Below, one piece after another: positions 7,792 to 54,274 of a stretch of DNA of 64,000 bases (the stretch's first letter is position 1; every line of letters begins with the position of its first letter). Position numbers and translations under genes: made by a program. The notes beneath the pieces were generated by a model that saw nothing but the letters and a program-made list of their open reading frames with translations, was not told where the DNA came from and did not search any database. The stretch is from an uncultured Pseudomonadota bacterium (GTDB lineage: Bacteria > Pseudomonadota > Alphaproteobacteria > Rs-D84), in assembly GCA_949298405.1 (NCBI GenBank), contig CASFWA010000002.1, forward strand, positions 10,048 to 74,047, in the 5' to 3' direction.

Positions 7792-8613
7792 ATGGCAGGA
7801 AAAACAATCCAAATTTATTTACCAAGCGGAAAACTTAAAGGTATAAAAAAAGCTTCTATTACAACAGAAAAACCAATCGTTTTTCAAGTTCCTCTTACAG
7901 AAGTTAGTAATAATATTGATAAACTAGATTTTAATGGTATTTATATTTTAGTTGATAGTATAACAACTAACAAACCTCAACTTTATATTGGTAAAGGGAA
8001 AGTCAAACATAGAATACAACAACATATAAAAAAGAAAAGCTTTTGGAATACGGTTTTTGCAGTTAAACTTGATAGCATTAATGGTTTTAGTGATACAGAT
8101 ATTTCATATCTTGAGTATTATTTTATAAAAAAAGCTAAAGGCTTAACCAATATTATAACAGAAGAAAATAAACAAATCCCACAGATTCCAAAATTACAAG
8201 ATGAAAAATTGGACGAATTAACGTGTTATATTGAAACAATTGAGTTTATATTATCAACCCTGGGCTTAAAATGTTTTCAAAATGAAGACGAAAATAATAC
8301 TTTCACATGCCAAGATAAATACGGAAGTTTTGGCCAAGGAAAATATAATTCAGATTCAGGGCTTCTATTATTAAAGGGCTCTAAATGTAAAATGGCATTA
8401 CATAAAGGAACCAAAAATTTACCTAAAAGAACGGATTTAATTAAAAAAGGAATTTTAAAAGAAAAGGATGGATTCTATATCTTAACAGAAGATACAACTT
8501 TCTCTTCTGTTTCATCCGCAGCTCAAATCGTATTGGCAAGACGAGCTAATGGATGGACCGAGTGGAAAAATAAAGAAGGAAAAACATTGGATGAATTGTA
8601 TAGAATAAAATAA
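7792..8613 (+). CDS. GIY-YIG nuclease with C-terminal DUF4357-like domain
   Basis: 273 aa. GIYILVDS...LYIGKG is the GIY-YIG core. The C-terminal half resembles DUF4357. Local GC is extremely low. Confidence 0.65.
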   Translation: MAGKTIQIYLPSGKLKGIKKASITTEKPIVFQVPLTEVSNNIDKLDFNGIYILVDSITTNKPQLYIGKGKVKHRIQQHIKKKSFWNTVFAVKLDSINGFSDTDISYLEYYFIKKAKGLTNIITEENKQIPQIPKLQDEKLDELTCYIETIEFILSTLGLKCFQNEDENNTFTCQDKYGSFGQGKYNSDSGLLLLKGSKCKMALHKGTKNLPKRTDLIKKGILKEKDGFYILTEDTTFSSVSSAAQIVLARRANGWTEWKNKEGKTLDELYRIK

Positions 8614-14937: not shown

Positions 14938-16722
14938 TTACGATTTCATAGTCTTATCATCTGACTTGAACTGCATATCGTATAACGTTTTATATGCACC
15001 ACATTCACGGTTTAACAAGTCTTTATGAGTCCCCATTTCTACAATTTCACCATTGTTTATTACAACTATCTTTGATGCGTTCCTTATTGTAGAAAGTCTA
15101 TGTGCTATTACAAAAACTGTCTTATCCTGCATCAGGTTCTCTATCGCTTTTTGTACAACCGATTCCGCCTTGTTATCAAGCGCTGATGTTGCTTCATCCA
15201 AAACCAATATCGGTGCATTCTTTAAAAACGCGCGTGCAATAGCAACCCTTTGTTTCTGCCCACCAGAAAGTAAAATTCCTCGTTCCCCAATTTCTGTGTC
15301 TAAACCATCTTTTAAACTTGCAATAAATTTATCTAAATATGCCATTTTTACTGCTTTCTGTAATTCTTCTTCGCTAGCATCTTTATTACCCAGCATTATA
15401 TTTTCGCGAATTGTACCAGCGAATAAAAAATTATCTTGAAAAACCACACCTATATTCTGCCGAAGCGAATGTAATGTGAAGTCCCTTATATCTGTACCAT
15501 CAATGCAAATTTGCCCCGATGTCACATCATAAAATCTTGGCAGAAGACTTACTAACGTAGTCTTTCCACCACCAGAATTACCAACCAATGCTATTGTTTC
15601 ACCCTGCTTTACAGTTAAATTTATATTTTTTAAAATGGGAACCCCTTGATTATATTCAAACCCTAAATTCTTAAATTCTATCAACTTATGAGTGGCAGGC
15701 ATTTCTTTTGCATTAGGTTTATTTGTTATAGCGGGTTTCGCATTCAAAATATCGAATACTCTATCGATTGCCATAAAAGACATCAAAACAGAATTGTAAT
15801 TAGAACCTATACTTTTCATAGGTGTATACAACATAACCAACGCAGTTAAAAACGATACAAAGTTACCTGCAGAAATTTTACCTTCTAAAATTAAAAAAGA
15901 ACCAAACCAAATAGATAAACCTATACCAATAGACAATATGACATGCATAACCGGTGTCACCCAACGAGTACGCTGCAACATTTTTATCTTTAACCTAAAC
16001 ACACCGTCTAAAACACTATTAAACTTACCTTTTTGATGTTCAGATAAATTATAAGCAATAACCGTCTTGTTCCCAGAATAAGATTCATTATATGCAGTCA
16101 AAAGTGCCGCATCGGCCGCAATAGACTGACTCATAACAGAGTCCACCTTTTTACGCAAAGAACTCATCGGTAAGAAAGCACCTATTAAAATCGCAACACA
16201 TAAAAATGCTAATTGCCACGAATTATAAAATAATACTGCTATCAGTGATATTGCGGTAAACAACTTCTGAACAAATGTTTTTAAATTTGTTAATAATCCT
16301 GCACAGGCCAAATCTGCATTATTATTAAACATAAATATTATGTCACCAGAATTCTTGGTGTTAAAGAAGTTAGTTTCAAAATCTAACATTTTCTTATATA
16401 AATCTAACTTTAATAAATTCGTTATTTTTGCCCCAACCCAAGTATTTAAATAATTCGCAGCGTAAGTTAGTCCTCCTTGAATACAAGTAAACGTAATTAT
16501 AGCAAGCGGTATGTACCATGCGGTCTGTACCGATTTTTCTACCATAACTAAATCCATATACGGTTTTAGCGACAATGCAATTACTGCATCTAATGAACCG
16601 ATAGGAATTGTTATAAGTAAAGACATTAACCCAGGAAACCAATATGGCTTTATATACGGCCACATTCGCTTATAATTCTTTACAAACATATTCTGACTTA
16701 AACGCTGTTTTATTTTACTCAT
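14938..16722 (-). CDS. ABC exporter, fused permease/ATPase (MsbA-like lipid/polysaccharide exporter)
   Basis: 594 aa. Six N-terminal TM segments. Walker A GNSGGGKTT, ABC signature LSGGQKQR, Walker B ILVLDEATSALD. Confidence 0.85.
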   Translation of the reverse strand: MSKIKQRLSQNMFVKNYKRMWPYIKPYWFPGLMSLLITIPIGSLDAVIALSLKPYMDLVMVEKSVQTAWYIPLAIITFTCIQGGLTYAANYLNTWVGAKITNLLKLDLYKKMLDFETNFFNTKNSGDIIFMFNNNADLACAGLLTNLKTFVQKLFTAISLIAVLFYNSWQLAFLCVAILIGAFLPMSSLRKKVDSVMSQSIAADAALLTAYNESYSGNKTVIAYNLSEHQKGKFNSVLDGVFRLKIKMLQRTRWVTPVMHVILSIGIGLSIWFGSFLILEGKISAGNFVSFLTALVMLYTPMKSIGSNYNSVLMSFMAIDRVFDILNAKPAITNKPNAKEMPATHKLIEFKNLGFEYNQGVPILKNINLTVKQGETIALVGNSGGGKTTLVSLLPRFYDVTSGQICIDGTDIRDFTLHSLRQNIGVVFQDNFLFAGTIRENIMLGNKDASEEELQKAVKMAYLDKFIASLKDGLDTEIGERGILLSGGQKQRVAIARAFLKNAPILVLDEATSALDNKAESVVQKAIENLMQDKTVFVIAHRLSTIRNASKIVVINNGEIVEMGTHKDLLNRECGAYKTLYDMQFKSDDKTMKS

Positions 16723-16730
16723 AACAGTCT

Positions 16731-17858
16731 CTACTTTGCTTTATAGTTATTAATAATTGCCTGAACCAACTGCATTTCTGTGAAATCGGCAGCGTCATAT
16801 TCTCTGACCTTATCGCTAACATTCGGTAAATGATGTACAGAATACAAATCTTTTATTCTTGCTGATGATATATGCGGTTTAAAAATTCTAAAATCTGTAT
16901 ATATTAAATCCATAGGACGATTGGCAGCAGTTAATAATACAGATAACCCAGACGCTAAACCTATGATTCCAGCAGACCGCTCTGCCAATGCAAATATTTC
17001 TGCCATATTTGTATCAAATGATACAGAATCTGAAAAAATATTGTTAATATCATTTACAAAAACATCATACCCTATTCTTTTAAACTCTTTTATCAGCAAA
17101 TGCCAAAAAGCATTAGACATTCCAGATAAAGAATTTGCACCAGGTAAAATAATAACGAATGGGTGCTTAAATTTATCTGCAAGTTTTCTATCTATTTTTA
17201 ATGCAACAGACTTATCAATTTTAGGTTTTTGCATTACAGATTTTTTAGTTAAATCAAAATCTTTGCATATATAATCATAAAAATTTGCCAGACCTGTTTC
17301 TTCATATATTCTGTTAAGATTTTCTGCGATTTTATATGTAGGACAAAATAACTTTCTGCCCTTATATTCAACACTTTCACAATCCAAGGCATCTTGAAGG
17401 TTATTTTTATCTATTTCAATGTATTTAATATCAATGCCTCTTGGTAAAAACATCTTATAAAAAGGAATATATTTTTTCTGCCAAACTATCAATAAAGGCT
17501 TTCTGGTGCCGCTGGCTTTTACCCACGATTTCAAATGGGTCAAGTATATATAACTTTCCCCGATATTATGTCGAATTATATAAACCCCATCATATTTTTT
17601 ACTGATTTGGTTAAATAACTTATTAAGAATTTTTCGTCTAAGGTTTTCCCTATATACCGGCAGGCAGCAAACTTTACTTATAGCATAATGATTTTTTATG
17701 CGCCTTTTATAAAGTCTAAGCCCTAACAGCCTGAAATCTTGTGTACCACGTGACGACTTTTTAAAACGCAATACGCCGCATAATATCGAATAAGTCTTTT
17801 CATTACCCCAATCATGATTATATGATGCGGAATTATAAATAATATTTTTAATCATCAC
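16731..17858 (-). CDS. putative glycosyltransferase (GT9-like C-terminal half)
   Basis: 375 aa. The C-terminal VIILPGANS...AGIIGLASGLSVLLTAANRPMDLIY resembles the heptosyltransferase (GT9) donor-binding region. Confidence 0.35.
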   Translation of the reverse strand: MMIKNIIYNSASYNHDWGNEKTYSILCGVLRFKKSSRGTQDFRLLGLRLYKRRIKNHYAISKVCCLPVYRENLRRKILNKLFNQISKKYDGVYIIRHNIGESYIYLTHLKSWVKASGTRKPLLIVWQKKYIPFYKMFLPRGIDIKYIEIDKNNLQDALDCESVEYKGRKLFCPTYKIAENLNRIYEETGLANFYDYICKDFDLTKKSVMQKPKIDKSVALKIDRKLADKFKHPFVIILPGANSLSGMSNAFWHLLIKEFKRIGYDVFVNDINNIFSDSVSFDTNMAEIFALAERSAGIIGLASGLSVLLTAANRPMDLIYTDFRIFKPHISSARIKDLYSVHHLPNVSDKVREYDAADFTEMQLVQAIINNYKAK

Positions 17859-17869
17859 TTCATATACTC

Positions 17870-18991
17870 TTAATTCTTATATTTCTGGTATACCCTTTCA
17901 GAAATCAAATCTCTTTCCCGTGCGATACCTAAAATATCATTCTCAAAATCGTAAGTTGTGCTGTAAAACTCGTTTAAAAAATCAGACGCAGCATTATTAT
18001 CTAAACCTATATCTATCCTTACACAATCTTTATAAACAGGTATATGTCGCCATACCTTTTCATCGTATAACATATCAAGAACAGGCAAATACAAAACACC
18101 CTTGTGCCATTTCAAAACAAATGCCCAGTGTCTTGAAAGCGCAATATCTGGCATGTGAATTACCATGGAATTATCTATATAAAATGTTTTTAAATTTAAC
18201 TGCTCTGTATCCCTTAGAAAAGTAAATACCCAATCAACATTGAAGTTAAACTCGTCTACATATTTTGTTGAATACTTTTCAATTAAATACTCGTTATAAC
18301 GCCAACCTATATTTTTCTTTACTACATCTAAACATTTCTGAGGATTTCTAACATACACAACCCCAAAAGACCAATGTACACCAAAAGATTTTGATACAAA
18401 CATATCGAAGTTAAAGCAATCTAAATCATTTTCTTCCGCATAAAATTCGGCTTTTTTCAGTGCTTCTGCTATTAATTCTGGCTTGGTCAAAATCATTATA
18501 TCGTCTGCATCAATATTATAAGTCCTTTTATAGTTATGTCTTGCAGCATGAACGAATGGGGTTAACATAGAATACGCAATTCTATGCCATAACTTCTGCC
18601 TTTCAACTTCATGCAATAATAATGGAACTTCTTTTTTTAATGTTTTCCTGTCACTTTTTATAAACGCGAAATCTTCGTTATAAAAGAAGCACGGTTTCTT
18701 AAAAATGCCTTCTTTCATTTTTTTATTGTCGCATACAAAATAGATAAAAGCGTCCATTCTGGCAATTATGTCCATCCAATGCTGAATACAATCAAAACTG
18801 GTTGTATGAACACGATGAACTTTTAAATAAAAAACCCGCTGTCCAGGTTTAGGCTTATGCCTTCTGCAACGTTCTATTTTCAATTTACCGTTTTGGTGTG
18901 TGTACTGAAAAACAGGAATTCCTAAAAGATAGAATTTTCTTATTTTTTCCCCATTTACTAATCTTACTTTTACTTTTTTTACAATTTTCAT
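17870..18991 (-). CDS. hypothetical protein within the polysaccharide cluster
   Basis: 373-aa ORF on the same strand as, and tightly packed with, its neighbours. Confidence 0.45.
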   Translation of the reverse strand: MKIVKKVKVRLVNGEKIRKFYLLGIPVFQYTHQNGKLKIERCRRHKPKPGQRVFYLKVHRVHTTSFDCIQHWMDIIARMDAFIYFVCDNKKMKEGIFKKPCFFYNEDFAFIKSDRKTLKKEVPLLLHEVERQKLWHRIAYSMLTPFVHAARHNYKRTYNIDADDIMILTKPELIAEALKKAEFYAEENDLDCFNFDMFVSKSFGVHWSFGVVYVRNPQKCLDVVKKNIGWRYNEYLIEKYSTKYVDEFNFNVDWVFTFLRDTEQLNLKTFYIDNSMVIHMPDIALSRHWAFVLKWHKGVLYLPVLDMLYDEKVWRHIPVYKDCVRIDIGLDNNAASDFLNEFYSTTYDFENDILGIARERDLISERVYQKYKN

Positions 18992-19002
18992 AACATTTAC
19001 CC

Positions 19003-19932
19003 CTAATTATTTTCACCAGTCATTTCAAAAGCTTGGTCCCAAGTATCTATTCTTTTTACCCCCCTTTTTAAAACATGTGCCGGATTTCCGCCAATCACCG
19101 TATAAGATTCTTCAAATGGCTTTACAACATTACTCTGCGCAGCAACAATCGTATAATCTGGCAGGCTTGCGTTTTTCCCTATAAAACTGCCCGTCCCTAT
19201 CCAACAATTATTGCCTATTCGCAGGACTCTTTTACGATGTCCATAATTTATTACTTTGTTTGTTTCAACATCTATTATCGGATGCGCGTCACTTACATAT
19301 ATCTTTGATTCAGCGGCAAGTCTTACATTATTTCCAATAAAGCACTTTAATCCGTATTCACACATATGAATTATAACCAAAGGATTTACGACCAAGTTAT
19401 CTCCTATTACTAATTCGCAATCTCCCATAGTCATAAAAATCACAAGACAAACTATTTTCTTGTCGTAAATCTTATTAGTAAAATTACCAAGCGAGAACTT
19501 ATGACCATCCCCAAGCATAGTAAGTTCTAATCTTTCTATTATCTTAGGCGCGCGAATTTTTATGGTGTTATTATTACCTTCTATTGTAAGAATTAAACCT
19601 GGTATTATTTTTGTCGTTTCAACATAATCACCAACCGCATCATTCCAAACTAATAACTTATTATTTTCCCCATGAAATACATAGTCGCTTGGACCAGCGG
19701 GTGGTGTTATTGCCTGTCTGAAATCGCTTTCTACTTTTGATAATTCTGACTTTGTTGTAAATGTTTCAAGTTTTGGGTAAATATCATTTACACCTTTTCT
19801 TAAATCTTCAATTTGTCCGCGCAAATCGTCTATCGGGTTATACATTAGTTTTTCACGAAAAGACTTTCTGCGTTCTTCATTTGGTATGAAACGACAAAGT
19901 GTATCTACCCAAAACTTTTTCATTATAATCAC
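19003..19932 (-). CDS. left-handed beta-helix (hexapeptide) acyl/acetyltransferase
   Basis: 309 aa. C-terminal hexapeptide repeats (IGNNCWIGTGSFIGKNASLPDYTIVAAQSNV). Overlaps the rpe-like gene by 4 nt. Confidence 0.6.
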   Translation of the reverse strand: MIIMKKFWVDTLCRFIPNEERRKSFREKLMYNPIDDLRGQIEDLRKGVNDIYPKLETFTTKSELSKVESDFRQAITPPAGPSDYVFHGENNKLLVWNDAVGDYVETTKIIPGLILTIEGNNNTIKIRAPKIIERLELTMLGDGHKFSLGNFTNKIYDKKIVCLVIFMTMGDCELVIGDNLVVNPLVIIHMCEYGLKCFIGNNVRLAAESKIYVSDAHPIIDVETNKVINYGHRKRVLRIGNNCWIGTGSFIGKNASLPDYTIVAAQSNVVKPFEESYTVIGGNPAHVLKRGVKRIDTWDQAFEMTGENN

Positions 19933-20582
19933 CTTAACTTTTCTACAATTTCTTTGTAAGTACGCAGTCCTCTTTTCTTACCGAACATTTCTGACGCAGT
20001 ACCACATACAAATTCTTCAATACCACGCGCAGACCACTTTGAAATTACATCTGGTGACACACAACCGTCTAAACGAATAGAAAATTTTCTATTTGGCATA
20101 TCTGCTAAAAACGCTAATTTTTTTTCAACTTCTGGTACAGCAGACTGACCCGCAAACCCAGGATTCACCCGCATAACCAATAAAGTATCTATTAATGGAA
20201 ACAAATTCTGAACTTCTTCAATTCTTGTTCCTGGGTTTATAGCAAGCCCCGCTTTTCTGCCGTTTAATTTTATTTCTTGCAAATATTTAGCAGAATCCCC
20301 AGATTCATAATGCACATAAATTATATCCGCACCATTTTTAAAAGCATAAGGTAAATGAATGCTAGGTACTTTTACCATTAAATGTGCATCTAGTGGTTTA
20401 GAAGTCATCTTTCTGACCGCCGCAAAATCTGCCCAAGACAAAGCAAAGTTCGGCACGAACTCCCCGTCCATAATATCCATGTGATATTGGTCTATTCCTG
20501 CTGCATCCATATCGGCAATTTCCGAACGGAAACTGCCGAAGTCTGCGCACATAATCGAAGGGCACAATATTTTATACGCCAT
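19929..20582 (-). CDS. rpe: ribulose-phosphate 3-epimerase family enzyme (Rpe/AlsE-like)
   Basis: The ORF track gives 19929-20606. The likely true start is MAYKILCPSIMCADFG at 20582 (Rpe N-terminal motif). HMDIMDGEFVPN, VNPGFAGQ and GCVSPDV are Rpe signatures. Confidence 0.75.
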   Translation of the reverse strand: MAYKILCPSIMCADFGSFRSEIADMDAAGIDQYHMDIMDGEFVPNFALSWADFAAVRKMTSKPLDAHLMVKVPSIHLPYAFKNGADIIYVHYESGDSAKYLQEIKLNGRKAGLAINPGTRIEEVQNLFPLIDTLLVMRVNPGFAGQSAVPEVEKKLAFLADMPNRKFSIRLDGCVSPDVISKWSARGIEEFVCGTASEMFGKKRGLRTYKEIVEKLR

Positions 20583-20583
20583 T

Positions 20584-21480
20584 TTATGCCCTTTTAGGTT
20601 TAGCAATCATAAATTCGCAACCAGAAACATCTAGTTTTTCATTTGGTTCTAATAATATCGCTGTACCAGGTAAAATCTTTATACCGTCAATTTCTTTTTC
20701 ACCACGCAACATTACAGCAAACGCAAACATATCCCCCTTGTTTTCAAATGTATCAACACCTTTAACAAGTTGTGTCGAATACATACGTTCTTCGATAGGT
20801 TCGCCGTCTTTATACTTTCTGGACGTTGATTTCTTATTTACATCTAAACAAGCAAGTGCTTTTTCTAATTGCAATGGTCTTTTTTTACCGTCTTTATCAA
20901 CGCGGTCATAATCATAAAAGCGATAAGTTTTTTCACAATTTTCTTCTATTTCGAAATGAAGTGAACCTGCTGTTGCAGCATGCAAAGTACCCCCAACTAT
21001 ATAAACATAATCACCTTCTTCACACGGCATTGAATCCAAAGTTTCTGCAATTTTTCCGTCTTTTATTTTCTGCTTCATATCATCAACGGATTTCGCTTTA
21101 CAACCGTTATACATTTTTCCGCTTTTAGGTGCTTCTAGTGTGTAAAAAGACTCATTCTTTCCAAAGGGTTTATTCTCTAATTCCTGAGCCTTCTTATCGT
21201 CTGGGTGTACTTGTATAGAAAGGTCGTCGTCTGCTTCAACCAATGCCATTAATATAGGCAATTCAGGATATTTGCTTAGACCATACTTGTCACGATTTTC
21301 CATAAACCAATCGTGAATGTTTTTACCTTTATCTGGTCCATAAATTATCTCGTTCTTAAATTCTTCAGTATCTATTGCTGAATACAGGTGCCCTATTTTA
21401 TGACAATTAGAACCTGAATATGGTGTCAATTTTGCTCCACCCCAAATAGTTTCGTGTACAATAGGTTTTAATATTTGCAT
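20584..21480 (-). CDS. class I mannose-6-phosphate isomerase-like cupin (ManA family)
   Basis: 298 aa. N-terminal IWGG and LSIQVHPDD are characteristic of type I PMI. Confidence 0.7.
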   Translation of the reverse strand: MQILKPIVHETIWGGAKLTPYSGSNCHKIGHLYSAIDTEEFKNEIIYGPDKGKNIHDWFMENRDKYGLSKYPELPILMALVEADDDLSIQVHPDDKKAQELENKPFGKNESFYTLEAPKSGKMYNGCKAKSVDDMKQKIKDGKIAETLDSMPCEEGDYVYIVGGTLHAATAGSLHFEIEENCEKTYRFYDYDRVDKDGKKRPLQLEKALACLDVNKKSTSRKYKDGEPIEERMYSTQLVKGVDTFENKGDMFAFAVMLRGEKEIDGIKILPGTAILLEPNEKLDVSGCEFMIAKPKRA

Positions 21481-21496
21481 GGTATGTCCTTATTTT

Positions 21497-21898
21497 TTAT
21501 AAGTTTTCATCAATTATTACCGACAATTCTTGTAAGCCTTGATTTCTATCTGGCGCAACAACATGTGCGCAACATAGACCACTAGGTTTGTTATCGTTGA
21601 ATAAAATTCTTTCTCCCATTGGAATTGCGAACTTTATATCATCAAAACGAATACCCGCATCCAAAATAAAGTTGATTGTCTTATCACGAACATCTGGTTC
21701 ATCTTCGCGCGCAGTAAGAATCAACACATAATCTTCCTCTGGGATATTACGCAAAAAATCCAGCGCACCAGGCAACCATTCATCCTGATTTGATATTCCG
21801 TCTTTATAACCATTGTGCCTTACTAATGTCCCGTCAAAGTCCAGTATCCATGTATGACGTAATGGCGATAAACGCAGTTCTTTATTGCTCATTTTCAT
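21497..21898 (-). CDS. small HAD-superfamily phosphatase
   Basis: 133 aa. DFDGTL motif I near the N-terminus (ILDFDGTLV). Confidence 0.55.
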   Translation of the reverse strand: MKMSNKELRLSPLRHTWILDFDGTLVRHNGYKDGISNQDEWLPGALDFLRNIPEEDYVLILTAREDEPDVRDKTINFILDAGIRFDDIKFAIPMGERILFNDNKPSGLCCAHVVAPDRNQGLQELSVIIDENL

Positions 21899-23405
21899 AC
21901 TCCATTAGCCATTCGTTAAACAATAAAGTTCCGTTATAAAACGCTATGCACATAGAGTCATAGTCTTCCCATGCATGCGAAGCCAACGACAGCCAAATAA
22001 TCGCATGTATTAATTTGATTTCTTTTACACTTGCTTCTTCTTTCGGAATTAAATTCAAGAAATAATCTGTTAGATGTTCCCACCCACCACTATTAATACT
22101 GAATGTCACTTCTTTATCAGATATATCTAAACTGAACTTTTTTATATTAAATTGGTCAAAGTTGCCGTAAATCGCATAGTACATTTTTGCCCAGTCATAT
22201 CTGACATCACCAAGGACTTGACTCTTTCCAAAATAACCACGCGCATCTATGAAATAGATTTTTCCAAGGTCATCTATCATCGTGTTTGTTAACTGACAAT
22301 CACCATGTATAGGACCGTAATATGTACTCATTAATGTGTTCAGAACCGCATGACGCAAAAGGTCTATGTTCCACATTATGTTCTGACACTTTTTACCATT
22401 TATAGAAATAAATCTTTCATTAGCGAACGGTATCGCAGATATTATTCCCTGCAATCTGTGTATAGTTTTTTTCAAGTATTCGGTATATAAATCCCATGCA
22501 GATGAAGGTGCTTTTTCATAACTATGCATAGTCTGTAATGCATGCACCATTTTTCGTATGGTTTCTTTACGATTATCATCGTCCATCTCTGCAAGGAAGA
22601 CATTTTTACCATGTATTAGTTCCATTGTTAGTGGATTCGTATTATATACTTTTGGTATGTATTCGAATCCGTATTCTTCCATTTTCTTATACCAGACAAC
22701 CTCGCGTTCTATCAACTTTACCGCTTCTGGTGTAAGACCGGTCTTTACAACCTTGCCATCAATAAATTCTATCTTGTTATAAGGACGGCATCTGTTAGAT
22801 GCTGTAGAAATCTCGTTATATGCTTCTAAGGTTCCTACATCAATGCTGCCCATTAAAGATATCGGGCTTAATGGAATATCCTTTTCGGCCAGCCATTTTG
22901 TAAAAGAACCTTCTGTCGGAAAATCTGTAAACCAACTTTTGTTATCAAAGATATATAAACCTGCAACCCCTTTACCTGAAATTTGCTCGTTCACAAGTTT
23001 TCCTTCTTTTAAACTCCATGAACAAGGAAAATCAACCAAACCAATCTGACACCCTTTTACTATTTCATTTATGCAAAAGGAATCTGATAAAATTATATCC
23101 GACCAAATAATCATAAATGGTTCGTTATCAGGTATATAAGAAACTGCTTCTTTTATTCCCGCCGCATTACCCTTGGTTGTGGCACGAACTAACATATAAT
23201 TAACATCTTTCGCGAATGTAGATAAATATCTATCTAAAACATCAAACTTATAATCACCGATAATTATAAACTCGTCTTTCGGATACTTTTTAAACAAGTG
23301 AAATATTATAGGCATATATTTTGCAGAAATTAAACTTTTGGGTTTTACATGCGTCAAAGCCTTCATTCTGGAACCAAGTCCACCCGCTTGAATTATGATT
23401 TTCAT
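21882..23405 (-). CDS. bifunctional sugar-phosphate nucleotidyltransferase / APH-type (LicA/AmgK-like) kinase
   Basis: 507 aa. N-terminal IIQAGGLGSRM (the G-x-G-T/S-R nucleotidyltransferase motif). C-terminal HGDCQLTNTMID...IDARG resembles the HGD..N..D catalytic loop of aminoglycoside/choline-kinase-fold kinases. Confidence 0.65.
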   Translation of the reverse strand: MKIIIQAGGLGSRMKALTHVKPKSLISAKYMPIIFHLFKKYPKDEFIIIGDYKFDVLDRYLSTFAKDVNYMLVRATTKGNAAGIKEAVSYIPDNEPFMIIWSDIILSDSFCINEIVKGCQIGLVDFPCSWSLKEGKLVNEQISGKGVAGLYIFDNKSWFTDFPTEGSFTKWLAEKDIPLSPISLMGSIDVGTLEAYNEISTASNRCRPYNKIEFIDGKVVKTGLTPEAVKLIEREVVWYKKMEEYGFEYIPKVYNTNPLTMELIHGKNVFLAEMDDDNRKETIRKMVHALQTMHSYEKAPSSAWDLYTEYLKKTIHRLQGIISAIPFANERFISINGKKCQNIMWNIDLLRHAVLNTLMSTYYGPIHGDCQLTNTMIDDLGKIYFIDARGYFGKSQVLGDVRYDWAKMYYAIYGNFDQFNIKKFSLDISDKEVTFSINSGGWEHLTDYFLNLIPKEEASVKEIKLIHAIIWLSLASHAWEDYDSMCIAFYNGTLLFNEWLMEYENEQ

Positions 23406-23560: not shown

Positions 23561-23580
23561 AAAAAAGCCCCAAGTGGGGC
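23561..23580 (-). terminator. rho-independent terminator after the DUF378 gene
   Basis: GCCCCA-AG-TGGGGC with a T-run on the minus strand. Confidence 0.5.
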
Positions 23581-49424: not shown

Positions 49425-50216
49425 ATGACAAAAAAACTTACTTATTTTTTTAGTGCTTTCTTTGTATTTGCTTTGCCTTTGATTCCTTGTCATGCCGCAA
49501 CTGATGACGCTTTTGATTTTAGCAACTTTGCAATTACAGAAAGTACAGATGCTGATTTAACCACAGAATCTGTATCTCTTAACCTGGATGCAGAACCAGC
49601 GAATGTTAACAGTTTTGATATAGCAGGCGTTATGCTGGGTATGCCATTCGAAGATGTAGAAACGTTATTCTTTAAAGCAAAGGGACTGTACGCCCCCCGC
49701 AAAGACAATAGCATAATCTATACCATACAAAAAGACTGGAAATATAATCTTGATTATGAATGTAGGCAACAAGGTATATATGCACCAGCAGACCTTGAAC
49801 AGTGTATAAACACTTTGGCAAAAAATCGCGGGTTATTATACGCATCTGAATTACATTTAGTGCGTGAAAATACAGGAGAAACGCTTGTAATCTATTTTAC
49901 AAGTAATGCAACAGATAACCTTGTATGGCGTATAGTTTATACAAATGATGTTAACGATATAGAAGGAGCACACGAAAAATTTGAAAACCAACGTGAAAAG
50001 AAAATCTTGGCATTCTGGCAGAACGTTCTGGATAAATATGGCGCCCCAAATTCAGGTACAGATAAATGGATTTCAACAAATAATTCTTATGACCCAATGA
50101 TGACTGCTTATTACGGTTCGTTGGACTTGGTTGATATGGGTCGCTGGACATCAGATGTCGCAAAGAATGTACAACAAGCACGCGAAAATTTCCAGGCAAA
50201 GCCATACGCTTTTTAA
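49425..50216 (+). CDS. secreted hypothetical protein
   Basis: 263 aa with signal peptide MTKKLTYFFSAFFVFALPLIPCHA. Confidence 0.5.
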   Translation: MTKKLTYFFSAFFVFALPLIPCHAATDDAFDFSNFAITESTDADLTTESVSLNLDAEPANVNSFDIAGVMLGMPFEDVETLFFKAKGLYAPRKDNSIIYTIQKDWKYNLDYECRQQGIYAPADLEQCINTLAKNRGLLYASELHLVRENTGETLVIYFTSNATDNLVWRIVYTNDVNDIEGAHEKFENQREKKILAFWQNVLDKYGAPNSGTDKWISTNNSYDPMMTAYYGSLDLVDMGRWTSDVAKNVQQARENFQAKPYAF

Positions 50217-50222
50217 ATATAT

Positions 50223-50250
50223 AAAAAGACCGTTTTATAAGGTCTTTTTT
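50223..50250 (+). terminator. rho-independent terminator
   Basis: AAAAAGACC-GTTTTATAA-GGTCTTTTTT. Confidence 0.65.
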
Positions 50251-50546
50251 CCTTTACAATCATATATATTCTCTCTACAATTAGCGTGGATTTCAATAGG
50301 TATTGAAGTTCGGGGCTTAGAAATATAAACCAATTTACAATTTTACAAAAAATTGTGATATTAATTACAATGTTTCTAAAAAACCGACCGCTAATTTTAT
50401 AATTGGTGGTTATTCTTTACCTTATGATTCCGACTTTATTCCCAAATGGGTGGATGCGCATGGTTATATATTGAAAACCAGCGGAATTAGAAAAAAGTTT
50501 TCTGATTATTTGAACGTCCACCCCCAGAGTAAAAAGGTAAAAAACT

Positions 50547-51386
50547 ATGCCAAAAGTATCTGTTTTAACACCGATTTATAATACCAACCCAGAATTCTTA
50601 AAAGAATGTATAGAAAGTATTTTAAATCAAACATTTAAAGACTTTGAATTCTTAATACTTAACGATAGTCCAGATAATATAGAAATAGAAAAAGTTGTAA
50701 AATCTTATAACGACAAAAGAATAAAATATATAAAAAATGAAAAAAACCTTGGGATATCTGAGTCAAGGAATAAACTTTTAAGCCTTGCACAAGGTGAATA
50801 CTTGGCAATATTTGATCACGATGATATATCTATGCCTGATAGACTTGAAGTAGAGGTTAAATATCTTGACGCAAATCCAGAAATAGGCGCGGTTTCTGGT
50901 TGGTTGGAGCTTTTCGATAAAAAAACAGAAATATGGTACACCCCAGAATTTGATATAGATATAAAAAAGATTATGACGGAAGATTGTTCTTTCTTTCATA
51001 CCGCAGCAATGATAAGACGAGATATATTAATTAATAACAACATCAAATACGAACCTTATTATACACCAGCGGAAGATTATCGTCTGTGGGCCAGATTGAT
51101 GAACGTAACAAAATTTTATAATTTTCAACGCCCCCTAGTAAAATATCGTTGGTTTGAAAATAATACAACAAACCTACAAGCAGAAAAAATGTCAAGGGCA
51201 CATGATGCCATACAAATAGACATAATAAATGAATTTCCTGCTTATAGATGGGCTTTTTTGCAAATGAAAAACCAACAAACAATATTCCGCCTTCGGTTAT
51301 TCAATTTGATACCAATATTAAAAATAAAAAACAACTGGGTATTATTATTTGAGTTTATCCCAGTATTCAAAATAAAATGGAAATAA
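50547..51386 (+). CDS. family 2 glycosyltransferase
   Basis: VSVLTPIYNTNPEFLKECIESILNQT...LNDSPD and a DxD motif (FDHDDIS). Confidence 0.8.
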   Translation: MPKVSVLTPIYNTNPEFLKECIESILNQTFKDFEFLILNDSPDNIEIEKVVKSYNDKRIKYIKNEKNLGISESRNKLLSLAQGEYLAIFDHDDISMPDRLEVEVKYLDANPEIGAVSGWLELFDKKTEIWYTPEFDIDIKKIMTEDCSFFHTAAMIRRDILINNNIKYEPYYTPAEDYRLWARLMNVTKFYNFQRPLVKYRWFENNTTNLQAEKMSRAHDAIQIDIINEFPAYRWAFLQMKNQQTIFRLRLFNLIPILKIKNNWVLLFEFIPVFKIKWK

Positions 51387-51410
51387 ATTCTATATCAAAA
51401 TGAGTTTATC

Positions 51411-53528
51411 ATGAAACGAACATTTAACACAGATTCTTTAAAGATAAAAAAATATACCTTTTTTGGTATTTGCTTTCTTACAAAAATTTGGGAATATAAT
51501 TTTAGAGAAACAAGATTATTAGGAATAACTATAAGTCGTAAAAATAATAAACAATTTATAATAAAAAATTCTATAAATTTTAATAATATATTTAATAAAA
51601 ATATAATAAAAACAAATAAGACTATAGATATAATTATTCCTATATATAACGGTGCAGAACATTTAGACCCACTATTAAACTCTGTAATTTCTAATACAGA
51701 TTTAAACTATAAACTTTTCTTAATAGATGATAAAAGCACGGATTCAAATGTTGAACAAATACTAAAAAAATGGCATGACAAATTTGGCAACAAGGCAATA
51801 ATAATACATAATGAACAAAACTTAGGTTTCGTTCAAACTGTTAATAAAGCTTTATCATATACGACAAACGATGTTGTAATATTAAACACAGATGTCAGAG
51901 TCCCTAAAAACTGGGCTTCCAGGCTTATGCAACCTATTTTTGAAAATCCTAATGTTGCGTCCGTCACACCCTTTTCAAACGCGGCAACCATTTTTTCTTT
52001 CCCCAAGCAATGGGAAAACAATGAATTAGAAATACCACTGCAAGAAATAGACGATATATTTTCTAAATTAAATTTTGATAATAATATTATACAACAACTA
52101 CAATTTCCTACTGGTGTTGGTTTTTGTATGGCGATGAGTCGTAAAGCTTTAAACAAAATAGGTGTTTTTGATTCTGTATTTGGTCGGGGATATGGTGAAG
52201 AAAATGATTGGTGCATGAGAGCCGTAAAAGCAGGTTTTATAAATACATTGGCGTATAATCTTTTTGTTTACCATAAACATGGTGGAAGTTTTTTGACAAA
52301 CGAAAAAAAGCTTTTATGTGAAAACCATAATAAAATTATAAAAAAACGTTATACTAGTTATGATAAAAATATAAAATTAGCTGCTTCAAGTTATAATTAT
52401 CAATCTATACTTTTTTTATTAAAACTTCTTTATTTTAATAAAATTGTAAACACAACTGTTTTGTATGTAGACCATTCTTTGGGTGGGGGAACAGAGTCTT
52501 ATTTTCTTGATCAAATCTCTACAATTAAGAATCAAACCCTGATAATAAGAATGCAGTATTTTCACGATTATAGAAAATATGTATTAAGTATTATTTATAA
52601 AGATACTAATGTTACACTAGGTGGTTTATTATTAAATGATTTGCTACTGCTTTTAAAAGAACTAAATTTTACTGAAATTATTATAAATAATCTTGTAGGA
52701 TATGAAAATACATTAGAGTTTCTTGATATAATAAAAAATTTAAAAAATAAAAATACCATATTAACGATGCGCGGTCATGATTATCAAGCAATATGCCCCT
52801 TTTTTACTTTACTTAATTACAAAAAGGATTTTTGTAATTTGCCATTGCCAGAAAAATGTAAACAATGTTTTTTAAATAATTCATTCGGTACAGATAAAGA
52901 ATCAGAAGTAATCTTGAAATCTGGCGCAACCAGTATAACAGAATGGCGCGCAAAATGGAACGATTTTTTAGAAAAATATCTTGATGAACTTATCGTTTTT
53001 TCTGAAAGTGGGAAAAATTTATTTTTAAAAACTTACCCTTGTTTAAAAGACAAAATAAAAATTATACCGCACAAGATTTTACCGCTACGCAAAGTCAATA
53101 TAAAACCATCTAAAAAACATACAATTGGTATTTTAGGTAATATTTATAGTGCTTCAAAAGGTTTAAATATTTTATCTGAAATCATAAAATTACAGAAAAA
53201 ATATAATATTTCTGTAATACTTATAGGTAACACAAATAAAAATATAAAAATAAAAAAAACAGGTACATACAAAAGAGAAGAACTTCCTAATCTTTTAGAA
53301 AAATATAAAATAGATATAATATTTATACCATCTGTCTGGCCAGAAACATTTTCATACACTACATCAGAAGCAATGGAAATGGATATCCCAGTAGCATGTT
53401 TTGATTTGGGTGCACCAGCAGAAAGGGTGATAAATTATAAAAAAGGATTGATTATAGATAAAATAAACGCAGAATATGCGTTACAAAAAATTCTCTTATT
53501 TATTAAAAAGCAAAAGAAAAATTTATGA
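51411..53528 (+). CDS. two-domain glycosyltransferase (N-terminal GT2 plus C-terminal GT1/GT4-like)
   Basis: IDIIIPIYNGAEHL...LIDDKSTD is the GT2 domain. The C-terminal ...ETFSYTTSEAMEMDIPVACFDLGAPAE is the GT-B EX7E motif. The true start may be internal. Confidence 0.65.
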   Translation: MKRTFNTDSLKIKKYTFFGICFLTKIWEYNFRETRLLGITISRKNNKQFIIKNSINFNNIFNKNIIKTNKTIDIIIPIYNGAEHLDPLLNSVISNTDLNYKLFLIDDKSTDSNVEQILKKWHDKFGNKAIIIHNEQNLGFVQTVNKALSYTTNDVVILNTDVRVPKNWASRLMQPIFENPNVASVTPFSNAATIFSFPKQWENNELEIPLQEIDDIFSKLNFDNNIIQQLQFPTGVGFCMAMSRKALNKIGVFDSVFGRGYGEENDWCMRAVKAGFINTLAYNLFVYHKHGGSFLTNEKKLLCENHNKIIKKRYTSYDKNIKLAASSYNYQSILFLLKLLYFNKIVNTTVLYVDHSLGGGTESYFLDQISTIKNQTLIIRMQYFHDYRKYVLSIIYKDTNVTLGGLLLNDLLLLLKELNFTEIIINNLVGYENTLEFLDIIKNLKNKNTILTMRGHDYQAICPFFTLLNYKKDFCNLPLPEKCKQCFLNNSFGTDKESEVILKSGATSITEWRAKWNDFLEKYLDELIVFSESGKNLFLKTYPCLKDKIKIIPHKILPLRKVNIKPSKKHTIGILGNIYSASKGLNILSEIIKLQKKYNISVILIGNTNKNIKIKKTGTYKREELPNLLEKYKIDIIFIPSVWPETFSYTTSEAMEMDIPVACFDLGAPAERVINYKKGLIIDKINAEYALQKILLFIKKQKKNL

Positions 53529-54274
53529 AAAAAGTTGTTTATACATGCATAACAGGGAATTATGATGATGTCCCTGAATATAAATATATAGATAAAACCT
53601 GGGATTATTTCTTATTTACTGATAATCCAGAATTATTAAAACATAAAAAAATTAAACATTGGAATATTGAACCGCTTGTTTATAAAAAACTTGATAATGT
53701 TCGGAATGCCCGTTGGCATAAAATAAATACCCACATACTATTTCCTGATTATAATTATAGTTTATGGTTAGATGCTAACATTTCAATAAACACAAAAAAT
53801 ATTTTTGAAAAATGTAACAAATATATAAAAAAGGATGTATTAATTGCTATTCCTTTACATCCAGAAAGAAATTGTATTTATAAAGAAGCAGAAATAATAA
53901 AACAATTAAATATCGATTATCCCCAAAAAGTTAATAAAGAAATGCGTTTTTTGCAAAAGAATCATTACCCACAAAATAATGGATTATCAGAAACATGTAT
54001 AATATTTAGACAACACAATAAAATTCAACCGATGTTAGATTTATGGTGGGAAATGATAAAAAAATACTCTAAAAGAGACCAATTGTCTTGTAATTTTGCA
54101 GCTTGGAGGTATAATATAAAAATAATCCCAATGTATAACCAAGCAGGTGCACACAGAACAAATAAAGATTTTACTTTTTCGTATAAATCAACTCATAATC
54201 AAGATAAAATTAATACAAATAAAATCAAAAAAATTTTATGTTTTTTGACAAATTATTTAAAGGTTCAAAAATGA
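53525..54274 (+). CDS. putative glycosyltransferase-like protein (TGNYD motif)
   Basis: 249 aa. N-terminal VYTCITGNYDDV. Family assignment uncertain. Confidence 0.45.
   Translation: MKKVVYTCITGNYDDVPEYKYIDKTWDYFLFTDNPELLKHKKIKHWNIEPLVYKKLDNVRNARWHKINTHILFPDYNYSLWLDANISINTKNIFEKCNKYIKKDVLIAIPLHPERNCIYKEAEIIKQLNIDYPQKVNKEMRFLQKNHYPQNNGLSETCIIFRQHNKIQPMLDLWWEMIKKYSKRDQLSCNFAAWRYNIKIIPMYNQAGAHRTNKDFTFSYKSTHNQDKINTNKIKKILCFLTNYLKVQK

What the first reader, a model, noticed from the sequence alone, without database searches (positions are those of the whole stretch)
19929..23405. Non-canonical NDP-sugar pathway: Rpe-like epimerase, cupin PMI-like isomerase, small HAD phosphatase and a fused nucleotidyltransferase-APH-type kinase
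Four co-directional, overlapping genes inside a polysaccharide export/glycosyltransferase cluster mirror the logic of the GDP-heptose route (isomerase, kinase, phosphatase, nucleotidyltransferase) but use non-orthologous enzymes. They are a ribulose-phosphate-3-epimerase homolog, a class I PMI-type cupin isomerase, a 133-aa HAD phosphatase, and one polypeptide with an N-terminal GxGTR nucleotidyltransferase fused to a C-terminal aminoglycoside/choline-kinase-fold (anomeric sugar kinase-like) domain. This predicts synthesis of an NDP-activated rare ketose-derived or epimerised hexose, or a phosphocholine-type decoration if the kinase is LicA-like, for the adjacent acyltransferase, GT-like genes and ABC exporter.
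Basis: inference. Interest (0 to 1): 0.5.

Follow-up and report, generated by a model that had tools for sequence, protein, structure and literature searches.

The report
Rare-sugar activation operon, phage-like
A gut bacterium carries an eight-gene operon whose core enzymes are relatives of a phage pathway, described in 2025-26, that makes UDP-arabinofuranose, but with a different pair of entry enzymes that probably feed in a rare six-carbon sugar for a surface glycan.

Summary
Four tightly packed minus-strand genes (23405-19929) encode a nucleotidyltransferase-kinase fusion, a small HAD phosphatase, a type I PMI-like cupin and an Rpe-family epimerase. They open a self-contained eight-gene operon, followed by an O-acetyltransferase, a GT-A glycosyltransferase, a heptosyltransferase-like GT-B and an MsbA-like ABC exporter.

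The fusion is a full-length homologue of phage AfhE/RB69 gp52:53. That enzyme is reported to phosphorylate arabinose-5-P at C1 and then make UDP-arabinofuranose, after a HAD phosphatase (AfhF) removes the 5-phosphate.

The entry module is new. All 58 viral loci with a detected isomerase, and a sister bacterial clade, use a KdsD-like SIS isomerase. A monophyletic bacterial clade (53 loci, several phyla of gut and rumen bacteria) always uses the PMI-like and Rpe-like pair instead. The epimerase has allulose-6-P-epimerase-like phosphate loops. Five fusion residues that are fixed or predominant (87-100%) in SIS-type enzymes are switched in this clade.

Best reading: fructose-6-P to allulose-6-P to altrose- or allose-6-P, then to the 1,6-bisphosphate, the 1-phosphate and an NDP-hexose. 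The product is inferred, not shown.

The parts
21882..23405 (-). Bifunctional nucleotidyltransferase (about residues 1-200) fused to an APH-fold sugar-phosphate 1-kinase (about residues 205-507). It is a bacterial clade-A homologue of phage AfhE / RB69 gp52:53.
   Evidence: Pfam and NCBIfam domain hits. More than 1127 homologues. Full-length tblastn hits in 377 phage records. RB69 ORF052 and ORF053 hit the family HMM at 6e-46 and 2.7e-14. phrog_4098 matches at 4.8e-58. Motifs GG.G.R, PK, W.D, HGD....N and FID.RGYFG are conserved.
21497..21898 (-). Small cap-less HAD phosphatase. Predicted to remove the terminal (C6 or C5) phosphate of the sugar bisphosphate, playing the AfhF role.
   Evidence: DxDGT, T.R and ND.KPSG motifs are conserved in 71 cassette copies. 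51% identical to the HAD that follows the SIS and fusion genes in Synechococcus phage S-SRM01. phrog_1238 matches at 1.2e-6. Detected in 77 of 85 bacterial loci, usually directly after the fusion gene.
20584..21480 (-). Type I PMI-like cupin aldose-ketose isomerase. Predicted to convert the 3-epimerised ketose phosphate into an aldose phosphate.
   Evidence: 1qwr (B. subtilis PMI) matches at 8e-32 and is almost gapless over residues 4-212. The presumed metal and phosphate motifs QVHP, NES, HA and TYR are conserved in 57 copies. It scores below the manA equivalog cut-off, 61 against 116 bits.
19929..20606 (-). Rpe-family ketose-phosphate 3-epimerase with allulose-6-P-epimerase-like phosphate-binding loops. 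The probable true start is ATG 20582, giving 217 aa.
   Evidence: Pfam 6.8e-47. Scores to Rpe and AlsE structures are nearly equal (2fli 1.3e-36, 3ct7 1.8e-35). PGFAGQ and DGC replace the Rpe motifs PGFGGQ and DGG. The beta8 loop is 2 residues longer than in Rpe and 1 longer than in AlsE. The same features hold in all 52 cassette copies.
19003..19932 (-). Hexapeptide-repeat O-acetyltransferase of the WbbJ / maltose O-acetyltransferase type, with an N-terminal extension.
   Evidence: NCBIfam matches at 1.8e-11 and 4.2e-11, below the cut-offs; Pfam Hexapep. Found next to the cassette in 8 loci.
17870..18991 (-). Glycosyltransferase of GT-A fold with an invariant DxDD motif (D161, D163, D164). 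No Pfam or NCBIfam family.
16731..17858 (-). GT-B glycosyltransferase most similar in fold to GT9 heptosyltransferases. It is the signature partner of the cassette and has no Pfam or NCBIfam family.
14938..16722 (-). MsbA-like half-size ABC exporter. Predicted to flip or export the lipid-linked product.
   Evidence: ABC_membrane plus ABC_tran domains. TIGR02203 MsbA scores 507 bits against a cut-off of 602. Homologues 62-63% identical sit next to the cassette in Gastranaerophilales and other uncultured-bacterium MAG loci.
23567..23580 (-). Intrinsic terminator of the upstream DUF378 gene. It marks the 5' boundary of the operon.
   Evidence: GCCCCACTTGGGGC followed by a T-run. Sequence read. 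An RBS-like GGGGGAGAGACG lies before ATG 23405.

Best explanation
The four genes are the sugar-activation half of an eight-gene surface-glycan operon in an uncultured gut alphaproteobacterium.

The core works like the phage UDP-D-arabinofuranose route. The C-terminal APH-fold domain of the fusion phosphorylates C1 of an aldose that already carries a terminal phosphate. The small HAD enzyme removes the terminal phosphate. The N-terminal domain of the fusion joins the resulting sugar-1-phosphate to an NTP, probably UTP by homology, to give an NDP-sugar.

The entry module differs. Instead of a KdsD-like SIS isomerase acting on ribulose-5-P, this clade uses an allulose-6-P-epimerase-like Rpe homologue plus a PMI-like cupin. 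Most likely these convert fructose-6-P to D-allulose-6-P and then to D-altrose-6-P or D-allose-6-P, so the product would be an NDP-D-altro- or allo-hexose, possibly in furanose form.

The GT9-like GT-B and the DxDD GT-A transfer the sugar to a lipid-linked acceptor. The hexapeptide enzyme O-acetylates the glycan. The MsbA-like ABC protein flips it across the inner membrane.

Basis of each step:
- Shown by sequence or structure: gene content, homologies, co-occurrence, residue switches.
- Taken from the literature on homologues: the kinase, phosphatase and nucleotidyltransferase chemistry.
- Inferred: substrate identity, nucleotide, ring form, acceptor, and the roles of the transferases and exporter.
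For: 1. Homology to the phage enzyme.
- Full-length hits in 377 phage records, 27-34% identity.
- RB69 ORF052 and ORF053 hit the family HMM at 6e-46 and 2.7e-14.
- phrog_4098 matches at 4.8e-58.
- Catalytic motifs are conserved.
- The biochemistry of AfhE and AfhF is as reported in PMC13326640.

2. HAD phosphatase.
- Detected in 77 of 85 loci, usually directly after the fusion gene.
- 51% identical to the HAD of the cyanophage SIS-fusion-HAD trio.

3. The entry module is interchangeable.
- 53 loci carry the PMI-like and Rpe-like pair, always together.
- 18 bacterial loci and 58 of 80 viral loci carry a KdsD-like SIS instead. No viral locus has PMI or Rpe.

4. Epimerase.
- In the window protein, the phosphate-site motifs match AlsE or differ from Rpe at the AlsE positions (PGFAGQ, DGC), and the beta8 loop is longer than in Rpe.
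- Across the 52 cassette copies the Rpe motifs FGGQ and DGG never occur and the beta8 loop is always 1-2 residues longer.
- Metal-binding motifs are kept.

5. PMI-like protein.
- The alignment to a hexose-6-P isomerase is almost gapless, with the conserved catalytic motifs kept.

6. The fusion itself changed.
- Positions 129, 167, 209, 416 and 477 are R, D/E, F, Y, Y in SIS-type bacterial enzymes and in 68-78 of 78 viral enzymes.
- They are S, S, Y, F, H in 53 of 53 clade-A enzymes.
- Clade A is monophyletic and the phage sequences are the outgroup.

7. Neighbours are glycosyltransferases by fold and co-occur with the cassette.

8. Precedent: an allulose-6-P 3-epimerase feeds a hexose analogue into pentose-type enzymes in angustmycin biosynthesis (PMC8599513).
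Against: - No enzyme of this clade has been assayed.
- By HMM score the epimerase is slightly closer to Rpe than to AlsE (171.7 against 149.3 bits). It just passes an Rpe subfamily cut-off, 165.3 against 165.
- Linking loop length to substrate length rests on my recollection of Chan et al. 2008, which I could not open.
- The residue switches could be clade synapomorphies or reflect nucleotide choice rather than sugar choice. I could not map them onto a 3D active site.
- The same GT9-like family accompanies both clades, which would also fit a shared sugar.
- Rpe copies in glycan loci can simply boost precursor supply.
- The window HAD is not detectably similar to RB69 gp51 in direct comparison. 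A 125-aa protein downstream of the fusion in a Shigella phage, which has no HAD signature, also gave nothing.
Confidence: 0.6

Rival explanations
1. Same product as the phages, UDP-D-arabinofuranose. The PMI-like cupin would be a non-orthologous arabinose-5-P isomerase replacing the SIS enzyme, and the Rpe-like enzyme would only top up ribulose-5-P from xylulose-5-P.
For: The fusion and HAD are homologous to the arabinose-5-P pathway enzymes. The same GT9-like transferase family is found with both entry types. The epimerase scores slightly better against Rpe models than against AlsE.
Against: The Rpe-like gene never occurs with SIS-type loci and always occurs with the PMI-like gene, which is odd for a mere supply gene. 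The Rpe phosphate motifs GGQ and DGG are lost in every copy. Five positions that are fixed or predominant (87-100%) in SIS-type fusions, spread over both domains, are switched. The PMI relatives act on hexose-6-P.
Confidence: 0.2
2. A different pentose. Ribulose-5-P is epimerised to xylulose-5-P, and the cupin then makes D-lyxose-5-P or D-xylose-5-P. The result would be NDP-D-lyxofuranose or NDP-D-xylofuranose.
For: Rpe-family chemistry fits. The fusion clade is sister to a pentose-5-P-using clade. PMI-type enzymes are known to handle lyxose/xylulose (own knowledge).
Against: Xylulose-5-P is a central metabolite, so a dedicated epimerase would be dispensable, yet it is always present. The beta8 loop and phosphate motifs point to a substrate longer than a pentulose.
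Confidence: 0.1
3. A heptose route. Sedoheptulose-7-P is 3-epimerised and isomerised to a D-glycero-D-altro- or allo-heptose-7-P, then converted through the 1,7-bisphosphate to an NDP-heptose that the heptosyltransferase-like GT transfers.
For: The window's epimerase has a beta8 loop one residue longer even than AlsE. The signature transferase is closest in fold to GT9 heptosyltransferases.
Against: Many clade-A epimerases have only the AlsE-length loop. The PMI-like protein aligns almost without gaps to a hexose-6-P isomerase. The GT9-like family also accompanies the arabinose-5-P-type loci.
Confidence: 0.07
4. A LicC-LicA-type phosphocholine (or other phospho-alcohol) activator unrelated to the epimerase and isomerase.
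For: The kinase has the APH/choline-kinase superfamily fold. A LicD gene follows the cassette in one related locus, L005.
Against: No choline-kinase family hit. LicC (1jyk) matches only 52 residues at E 0.015. Full-length homology is to AfhE-type sugar enzymes. Linkage to sugar-phosphate isomerases is strict in 71 bacterial loci and 58 viral loci.
Confidence: 0.02

Closest known systems
Phage UDP-D-arabinofuranose pathway for arabinosyl-5-hydroxycytosine DNA. Components: SIS arabinose-5-P isomerase, AfhE (RB69 gp52:53, DLP3 gp82) and AfhF (RB69 gp51). Sources: He et al., Nat Chem Biol 2026; Mahler et al. 2025; PMC13326640.
   Same: - The bifunctional nucleotidyltransferase-kinase is homologous over its full length.
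- A small HAD phosphatase sits next to it.
- The order of chemistry is the same: terminally phosphorylated aldose, then 1,omega-bisphosphate, then sugar-1-P, then NDP-sugar.
   Different: - There is no SIS isomerase. An Rpe-like epimerase and a PMI-like cupin take its place.
- Five positions that are fixed or predominant (87-100%) in SIS-type fusions are switched.
- The product is used by glycosyltransferases and an ABC exporter for a cell-surface glycan, not for DNA modification.
- The host is a bacterium, not a phage.
NDP-heptose pathways: GmhA, HldE or HddA, GmhB, HldE or HddC.
   Same: The four-step logic of isomerase, anomeric kinase, terminal phosphatase and nucleotidyltransferase is identical. 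The phosphatase is from the HAD superfamily. The partner transferase has a GT9-like fold.
   Different: The kinase has the APH fold, not PfkB or GHMP. The isomerase is a cupin, not SIS. An extra 3-epimerase is present. HddC and GmhA models score far below their cut-offs.
AmgK/MurU and NahK-type salvage, in which an APH-fold anomeric sugar kinase works with a sugar-1-P uridylyltransferase.
   Same: An APH-fold kinase acting at C1 is coupled to a small sugar-1-P nucleotidyltransferase.
   Different: Those kinases act on free sugars and need no phosphatase. MurU scores 30.7 bits against a cut-off of 250. Here the substrate is predicted to be already phosphorylated at its terminal carbon.
D-allose catabolism (AlsE) and angustmycin biosynthesis (AgmD), both using a D-allulose-6-P 3-epimerase.
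   Same: An Rpe-family enzyme with AlsE-like phosphate-site features. In angustmycin biosynthesis it is used biosynthetically to feed a six-carbon analogue into enzymes related to pentose-phosphate enzymes (PMC8599513).
   Different: It is not a member of the AlsE equivalog, scoring 149 bits against a cut-off of 271. It is coupled to a PMI-like isomerase rather than RpiB/AlsI or a pyrophosphokinase.

Membership tests
AfhE/AfhF-type NDP-arabinofuranose pathway (phage) | One polypeptide with an N-terminal sugar-1-P nucleotidyltransferase and a C-terminal kinase, homologous to AfhE / RB69 gp52:53 | tested here: met
   tblastn covers 97-98% of the query in 365 of 377 phage records. RB69 ORF053 and ORF052 hit HMM positions 4-215 and 215-502 at 2.7e-14 and 6e-46. 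phrog_4098 matches at 4.8e-58.
AfhE/AfhF-type NDP-arabinofuranose pathway (phage) | Companion Mg-dependent HAD phosphatase (AfhF) | tested here: met
   A HAD gene with the DxDGT motif overlaps the fusion gene. It is 51% identical to the cyanophage S-SRM01 HAD and hits phrog_1238 at 1.2e-6. Direct similarity to RB69 ORF051 was not detectable.
AfhE/AfhF-type NDP-arabinofuranose pathway (phage) | SIS-type arabinose-5-P isomerase supplying the substrate | tested here: not met
   No SIS domain in the operon. SIS was found in 18 sister-clade loci and 58 viral loci, but in none of the 53 clade-A loci.
AfhE/AfhF-type NDP-arabinofuranose pathway (phage) | Product is UDP-D-arabinofuranose | not testable with these tools
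   Needs enzyme assays. The residue switches at positions 129, 167, 209, 416 and 477 argue for a changed substrate.
LicC/LicA phosphocholine activation | Kinase domain belongs to the choline/ethanolamine kinase family, and the nucleotidyltransferase to the CTP:phosphocholine cytidylyltransferases | tested here: not met
   No Choline_kinase hit at E 0.01 or better. 1jyk matches at E 0.015 over 52 residues. Better hits are to sugar-1-P nucleotidyltransferases.
Ribulose-phosphate 3-epimerase (housekeeping Rpe, TIGR01163) | Score above the equivalog cut-off, and the GGQ and DGG phosphate-binding motifs | tested here: not met
   171.7 bits against a cut-off of 212.6. The motifs are FAGQ and DGC, and the beta8 loop is 2 residues longer. 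It just passes the looser subfamily model NF004076, 165.3 against 165.
D-allulose-6-P 3-epimerase AlsE (NF007266) | Score above the equivalog cut-off | tested here: not met
   149.3 bits against a cut-off of 271. It resembles AlsE only in the phosphate-site features.
Mannose-6-P isomerase class I (TIGR00218) | Score above the equivalog cut-off, with conserved catalytic motifs | tested here: inconclusive
   61.3 bits against a cut-off of 116.2. However, 1qwr matches at 8e-32, and the QVHP, NES, HA and TYR motifs are conserved. This makes it a family relative, not an orthologue.
GT9 heptosyltransferases (for 16731-17858) | Sequence membership in Pfam Glyco_transf_9, and the GT-B fold | tested here: inconclusive

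The most novel reading that the evidence does not exclude
Clade-A cassettes make a nucleotide sugar not yet described in biology, an NDP-D-altro- or allo-hexose that may be in furanose form. The route would be a natural fructose-6-P to allulose-6-P to altrose/allose-6-P branch. The PMI-fold enzyme would be the first natural altrose/allose-6-P isomerase of that fold. The sugar would be installed on the envelopes of many gut and rumen bacteria by two unnamed glycosyltransferase families.
Probability: 0.4. Interest if true: 0.75.

Novelty: new variant of a known kind. Interest (0 to 1): 0.6.

Why it matters
The kinase-phosphatase-nucleotidyltransferase route to NDP-arabinofuranose was described only in 2025-26, and only as a phage DNA-modification device. 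This locus shows three further things.

- The same core is widespread in bacteria. At least 236 loci in a one-genome-per-species collection encode a relative, and more than 1100 proteins were found. Carriers include Sutterella, Dakarella, Oxalobacter, Akkermansia, Gastranaerophilales, Selenomonas and Lachnospiraceae.
- In bacteria it serves surface-glycan synthesis.
- One large clade has swapped its entry enzymes in a way that predicts a new rare sugar on the surface of gut commensals.

The finding gives testable functions to four unannotated or mis-annotated families: the fusion, the small HAD, a GT9-like GT-B and a DxDD GT-A. It also points to cultured strains in which the sugar could be identified. 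Unusual envelope sugars of gut bacteria matter for immune recognition and phage receptors.

Tried and rejected
- LicCA, AmgK/MurU and HddA/HddC memberships: all far below family cut-offs.
- First literature search, combining epimerase, PMI, nucleotidyltransferase and capsule terms: nothing relevant.
- He et al. 2026, Mahler et al. 2025 and Chan et al. 2008 are not held. The AfhE/AfhF biochemistry is therefore second-hand via PMC13326640, and the AlsE loop rule is from memory.
- Searches for UDP-D-arabinofuranose or arabinose-5-P kinase in bacteria found only the phage paper.
- Direct BLASTP of the window HAD against the 125-aa protein downstream of the fusion in a Shigella phage, and the HAD HMM against RB69 ORF051: no similarity. 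Only the PHROG profile and the cyanophage link them.
- The promoter scan was uninformative, with 40 hits against 45.7 expected.
- PfkB kinase and KDPG aldolase neighbours in Gastranaerophilales were judged unrelated synteny.

Full report
**Observation.**
- The 507-aa protein (21882-23405) has an N-terminal sugar-phosphate nucleotidyltransferase domain and a C-terminal APH-fold kinase domain.
- The 133-aa protein (21497-21898) carries the HAD DxDGT motif.
- The 298-aa protein (20584-21480) is a type I PMI relative.
- The 225-aa ORF (19929-20606, more probably 217 aa from ATG 20582) belongs to the ribulose-phosphate 3-epimerase family.

All four score below the curated cut-offs of the named equivalogs, so they are relatives, not orthologues, of Rpe, AlsE, ManA, MurU and HddC.

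**Operon and context.** A clean intrinsic terminator (23580-23567) follows a small DUF378 gene upstream. An RBS-like GGGGGAGAGACG precedes ATG 23405. Eight minus-strand genes then run with tiny gaps or overlaps down to 14938:
- the fusion, the HAD, the PMI-like and the Rpe-like genes;
- a hexapeptide O-acetyltransferase;
- two proteins with no Pfam or NCBIfam match;
- an MsbA-like ABC exporter.

The flanks are unrelated: ThiF, TatD, a DNA methylase with a PLD-type protein, a Slam protein with lipoproteins, DUF362 and an MFS transporter. The operon is a self-contained module. The window matches an uncultured gut Alphaproteobacteria MAG at 98%.

**Distribution.** The fusion family is large, with more than 1127 proteins down to about 50% identity. 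In a one-genome-per-species collection, 236 loci encode a relative. They are mostly gut or rumen organisms from several phyla: Alphaproteobacteria, Sutterella, Dakarella massiliensis, Oxalobacter, Mailhella, Akkermansia, Gastranaerophilales, Selenomonas, Lachnospiraceae, Butyrivibrio and Treponema.

In the 85 loci fetched, the HAD gene is detected in 77 and usually lies directly after the fusion gene. The isomerase step comes in two mutually exclusive forms.
- In 53 loci the PMI-like and Rpe-like genes occur, always together, sometimes in a different order. This includes every locus with a fusion at least about 47% identical to the window's and enough flanking sequence.
- In 18 Firmicutes or Treponema loci there is neither. 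Instead a SIS domain is present, either as a separate gene of about 195 aa or fused to the C-terminus of the fusion (699-711 aa). Its best match is KpsF/KdsD/GutQ arabinose-5-P isomerases.

**Published precedent.** A literature search led to PMC13326640 (NAR 2026). That paper summarises He et al. (Nat Chem Biol 2026) and Mahler et al. (2025). Phages with arabinosylated 5-hydroxycytosine make UDP-D-arabinofuranose in three steps.
- A SIS arabinose-5-P isomerase (RB69 gp55) makes arabinose-5-P from ribulose-5-P.
- The bifunctional AfhE (RB69 gp52:53, DLP3 gp82) has a C-terminal kinase that phosphorylates arabinose-5-P at C1, and an N-terminal domain that is the UDP-arabinose pyrophosphorylase.
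- The HAD phosphatase AfhF (RB69 gp51) removes the 5-phosphate in between.

The window's fusion is homologous to these proteins over its full length.
- 377 phage records are hit, at 27-34% identity and 97-98% coverage.
- RB69 ORF053 and ORF052 match positions 4-215 and 215-502 of the bacterial family HMM, at 2.7e-14 and 6e-46.
- PHROG 4098 matches end to end at 4.8e-58.
- The catalytic motifs align.

The best phage match, Synechococcus phage S-SRM01, has SIS, fusion and HAD genes in a row inside a glycosyltransferase cluster. Its HAD is 51% identical to the window's. The window HAD also hits the PHROG that carries the same misleading label as RB69 ORF051, "phosphoheptose isomerase". Direct comparison with the Straboviridae proteins found nothing.

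Its LicCA alternative is not.

**What is different here.** In 80 viral loci, including giant-virus MAGs, SIS is found in 58 and PMI or Rpe in none. The PMI-like and Rpe-like entry module is therefore specific to one bacterial clade. Several lines suggest it changes the sugar rather than merely replacing the isomerase.

1. The Rpe-like gene is strictly tied to the PMI-like gene and absent from every SIS-type locus. A gene that only topped up ribulose-5-P or xylulose-5-P, both central metabolites, should not behave so.

2. The epimerase keeps the metal and catalytic motifs, but its phosphate site is not Rpe-like.
   - It has PGFAGQ where Rpe has PGFGGQ (AlsE also has PGFAGQ).
   - It has DGC where Rpe has DGG (AlsE has DGS).
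   - Its beta8 loop is two residues longer than in Rpe and one longer than in AlsE.
   - Across 52 cassette copies, FGGQ and DGG never occur, and the loop is always one or two residues longer than in Rpe.
   - From my recollection of Chan et al. 2008 (not retrievable), it is precisely the one-residue-longer beta8 loop that fits AlsE to hexulose-6-P.

3. The PMI-like protein aligns almost without gaps to B. subtilis PMI (8e-32). The QVHP, NES, HA and TYR motifs are conserved in all 57 copies, which fits a hexose-6-P-sized site.

4. The fusion itself changed at the origin of the clade.
   - Clades A and B are sister groups, with phages as outgroup.
   - Positions 129, 167, 209, 416 and 477 are R, D/E, F, Y, Y in SIS-type bacterial enzymes.
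   - The same residues occur in 69, 68, 78, 68 and 78 of 78 viral enzymes.
   - They are S, S, Y, F, H in 53 of 53 clade-A enzymes.
   - The switches lie in both the nucleotidyltransferase and the kinase halves.

**Proposed chemistry.** Both front-end enzymes must act on 2-ketose phosphates, so the only sequential arrangement is:
- central ketose-P, then (epimerase) 3-epi-ketose-P, then (isomerase) aldose-P.

With fructose-6-P this gives D-allulose-6-P, the six-carbon homologue of ribulose-5-P. The next product is D-altrose-6-P, which has the ring configuration of arabinose, or D-allose-6-P, which has the ring configuration of ribose. The kinase, HAD and nucleotidyltransferase would then yield an NDP-D-altro- or allo-hexose.

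This explains why an epimerase is needed only with this entry module: allulose-6-P is not a central metabolite, whereas ribulose-5-P is. Angustmycin biosynthesis offers a precedent for feeding a hexulose analogue into pentose-type enzymes through an allulose-6-P 3-epimerase (PMC8599513). A natural altrose-6-P isomerase is not known (PMC8208507).

I cannot decide between altrose and allose, nor fix the nucleotide or ring form. The same-product, other-pentose and heptose readings remain open, at roughly 0.2, 0.1 and 0.07.

- other GT-B enzymes score 11.8 or less, and identity is 10-14%.

Its family occurs in 66 of 85 loci, often in several copies, in both clades and in a few viral contigs. That makes it the likely dedicated transferase.

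The 373-aa protein (17870-18991; pLDDT 94.3) has a GT-A fold with an invariant DxDD motif. It occurs in 16 bacterial and 3 viral loci.

Other recurrent neighbours are GT2, pyruvyl transferases, acyltransferases, LicD (once) and the MsbA-like ABC protein. That ABC protein has homologues 62-63% identical beside the cassette in Gastranaerophilales and other uncultured-bacterium MAG loci.

The window organism has an outer membrane, as shown by its Slam protein. A lipid-linked acceptor such as the LPS core is therefore plausible, but this is inferred.

**Verdict.** The core mechanism is a bacterial counterpart of a known, very recently described phage pathway. The Rpe-like plus PMI-like entry module, the correlated changes in the fusion enzyme and the two unnamed glycosyltransferase families make this a new variant of a known kind. 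It has a realistic chance, about 0.4, of producing a nucleotide sugar not yet described.

Noticed in passing
L002:3606-4800 (sister strain of the window organism; corresponds to window about 20584-21480): In a second metagenome assembly of the same organism, the PMI-like gene is truncated at 172 aa by an IS1595-family transposase. This is a natural knock-out of the sugar operon and suggests the glycan is dispensable or under diversifying selection.
   Followed up: partly
window:11270-14932: A Slam (SlipAM plus TPR) outer-membrane protein is followed by two lipoproteins with no Pfam match that share a near-identical C-terminal region. This looks like a Slam-dependent surface lipoprotein pair in a gut alphaproteobacterium.
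   Followed up: partly
L104, L136, L141, L149, L153, L154, L157, L159, L160, L162, L164 (IMG/VR GVMAG contigs): Homologues of the nucleotidyltransferase-kinase fusion occur in giant-virus metagenome bins. Three of the eleven (L104, L141, L149) also have a SIS hit, and in L104 it lies in the same ORF as the fusion. The pathway may therefore reach beyond bacteriophages.
   Followed up: no
L089-L100 (IMG/VR contigs, 36-41% identical fusions): These viral or prophage-like contigs carry SIS, fusion and bacterial-type HAD genes. Four of them have homologues of the GT9-like transferase and three have homologues of the GT-A transferase. Some phages may use the sugar for glycans rather than DNA, or the contigs may be misclassified bacterial DNA.
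   Followed up: no
L088:7709-8095 (RB69 ORF051) and PHROG 1238: The phage HAD phosphatase of the arabinose pathway is annotated 'phosphoheptose isomerase' in RefSeq and PHROGs. By the published account it is a mis-annotation that has propagated.
   Followed up: partly
window:25455-27466 and 7792-8613: A C5 DNA methyltransferase is followed by a PLD-family (PLDc_2) protein. Elsewhere there is a DUF4357/RAMA-like protein. These may be restriction-modification or defence genes next to the glycan operon.
   Followed up: no
window:8001-10000 and 50001-54000: Two stretches have markedly low G+C (0.26-0.30, against about 0.35-0.42 elsewhere), which suggests recently acquired DNA.
   Followed up: no
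L026:10618-12954 and 8 other loci: A fusion of an FrhB/FdhB-like 4Fe-4S domain to a polysaccharide pyruvyl transferase recurs next to the cassette in Gastranaerophilales-type loci.
   Followed up: no
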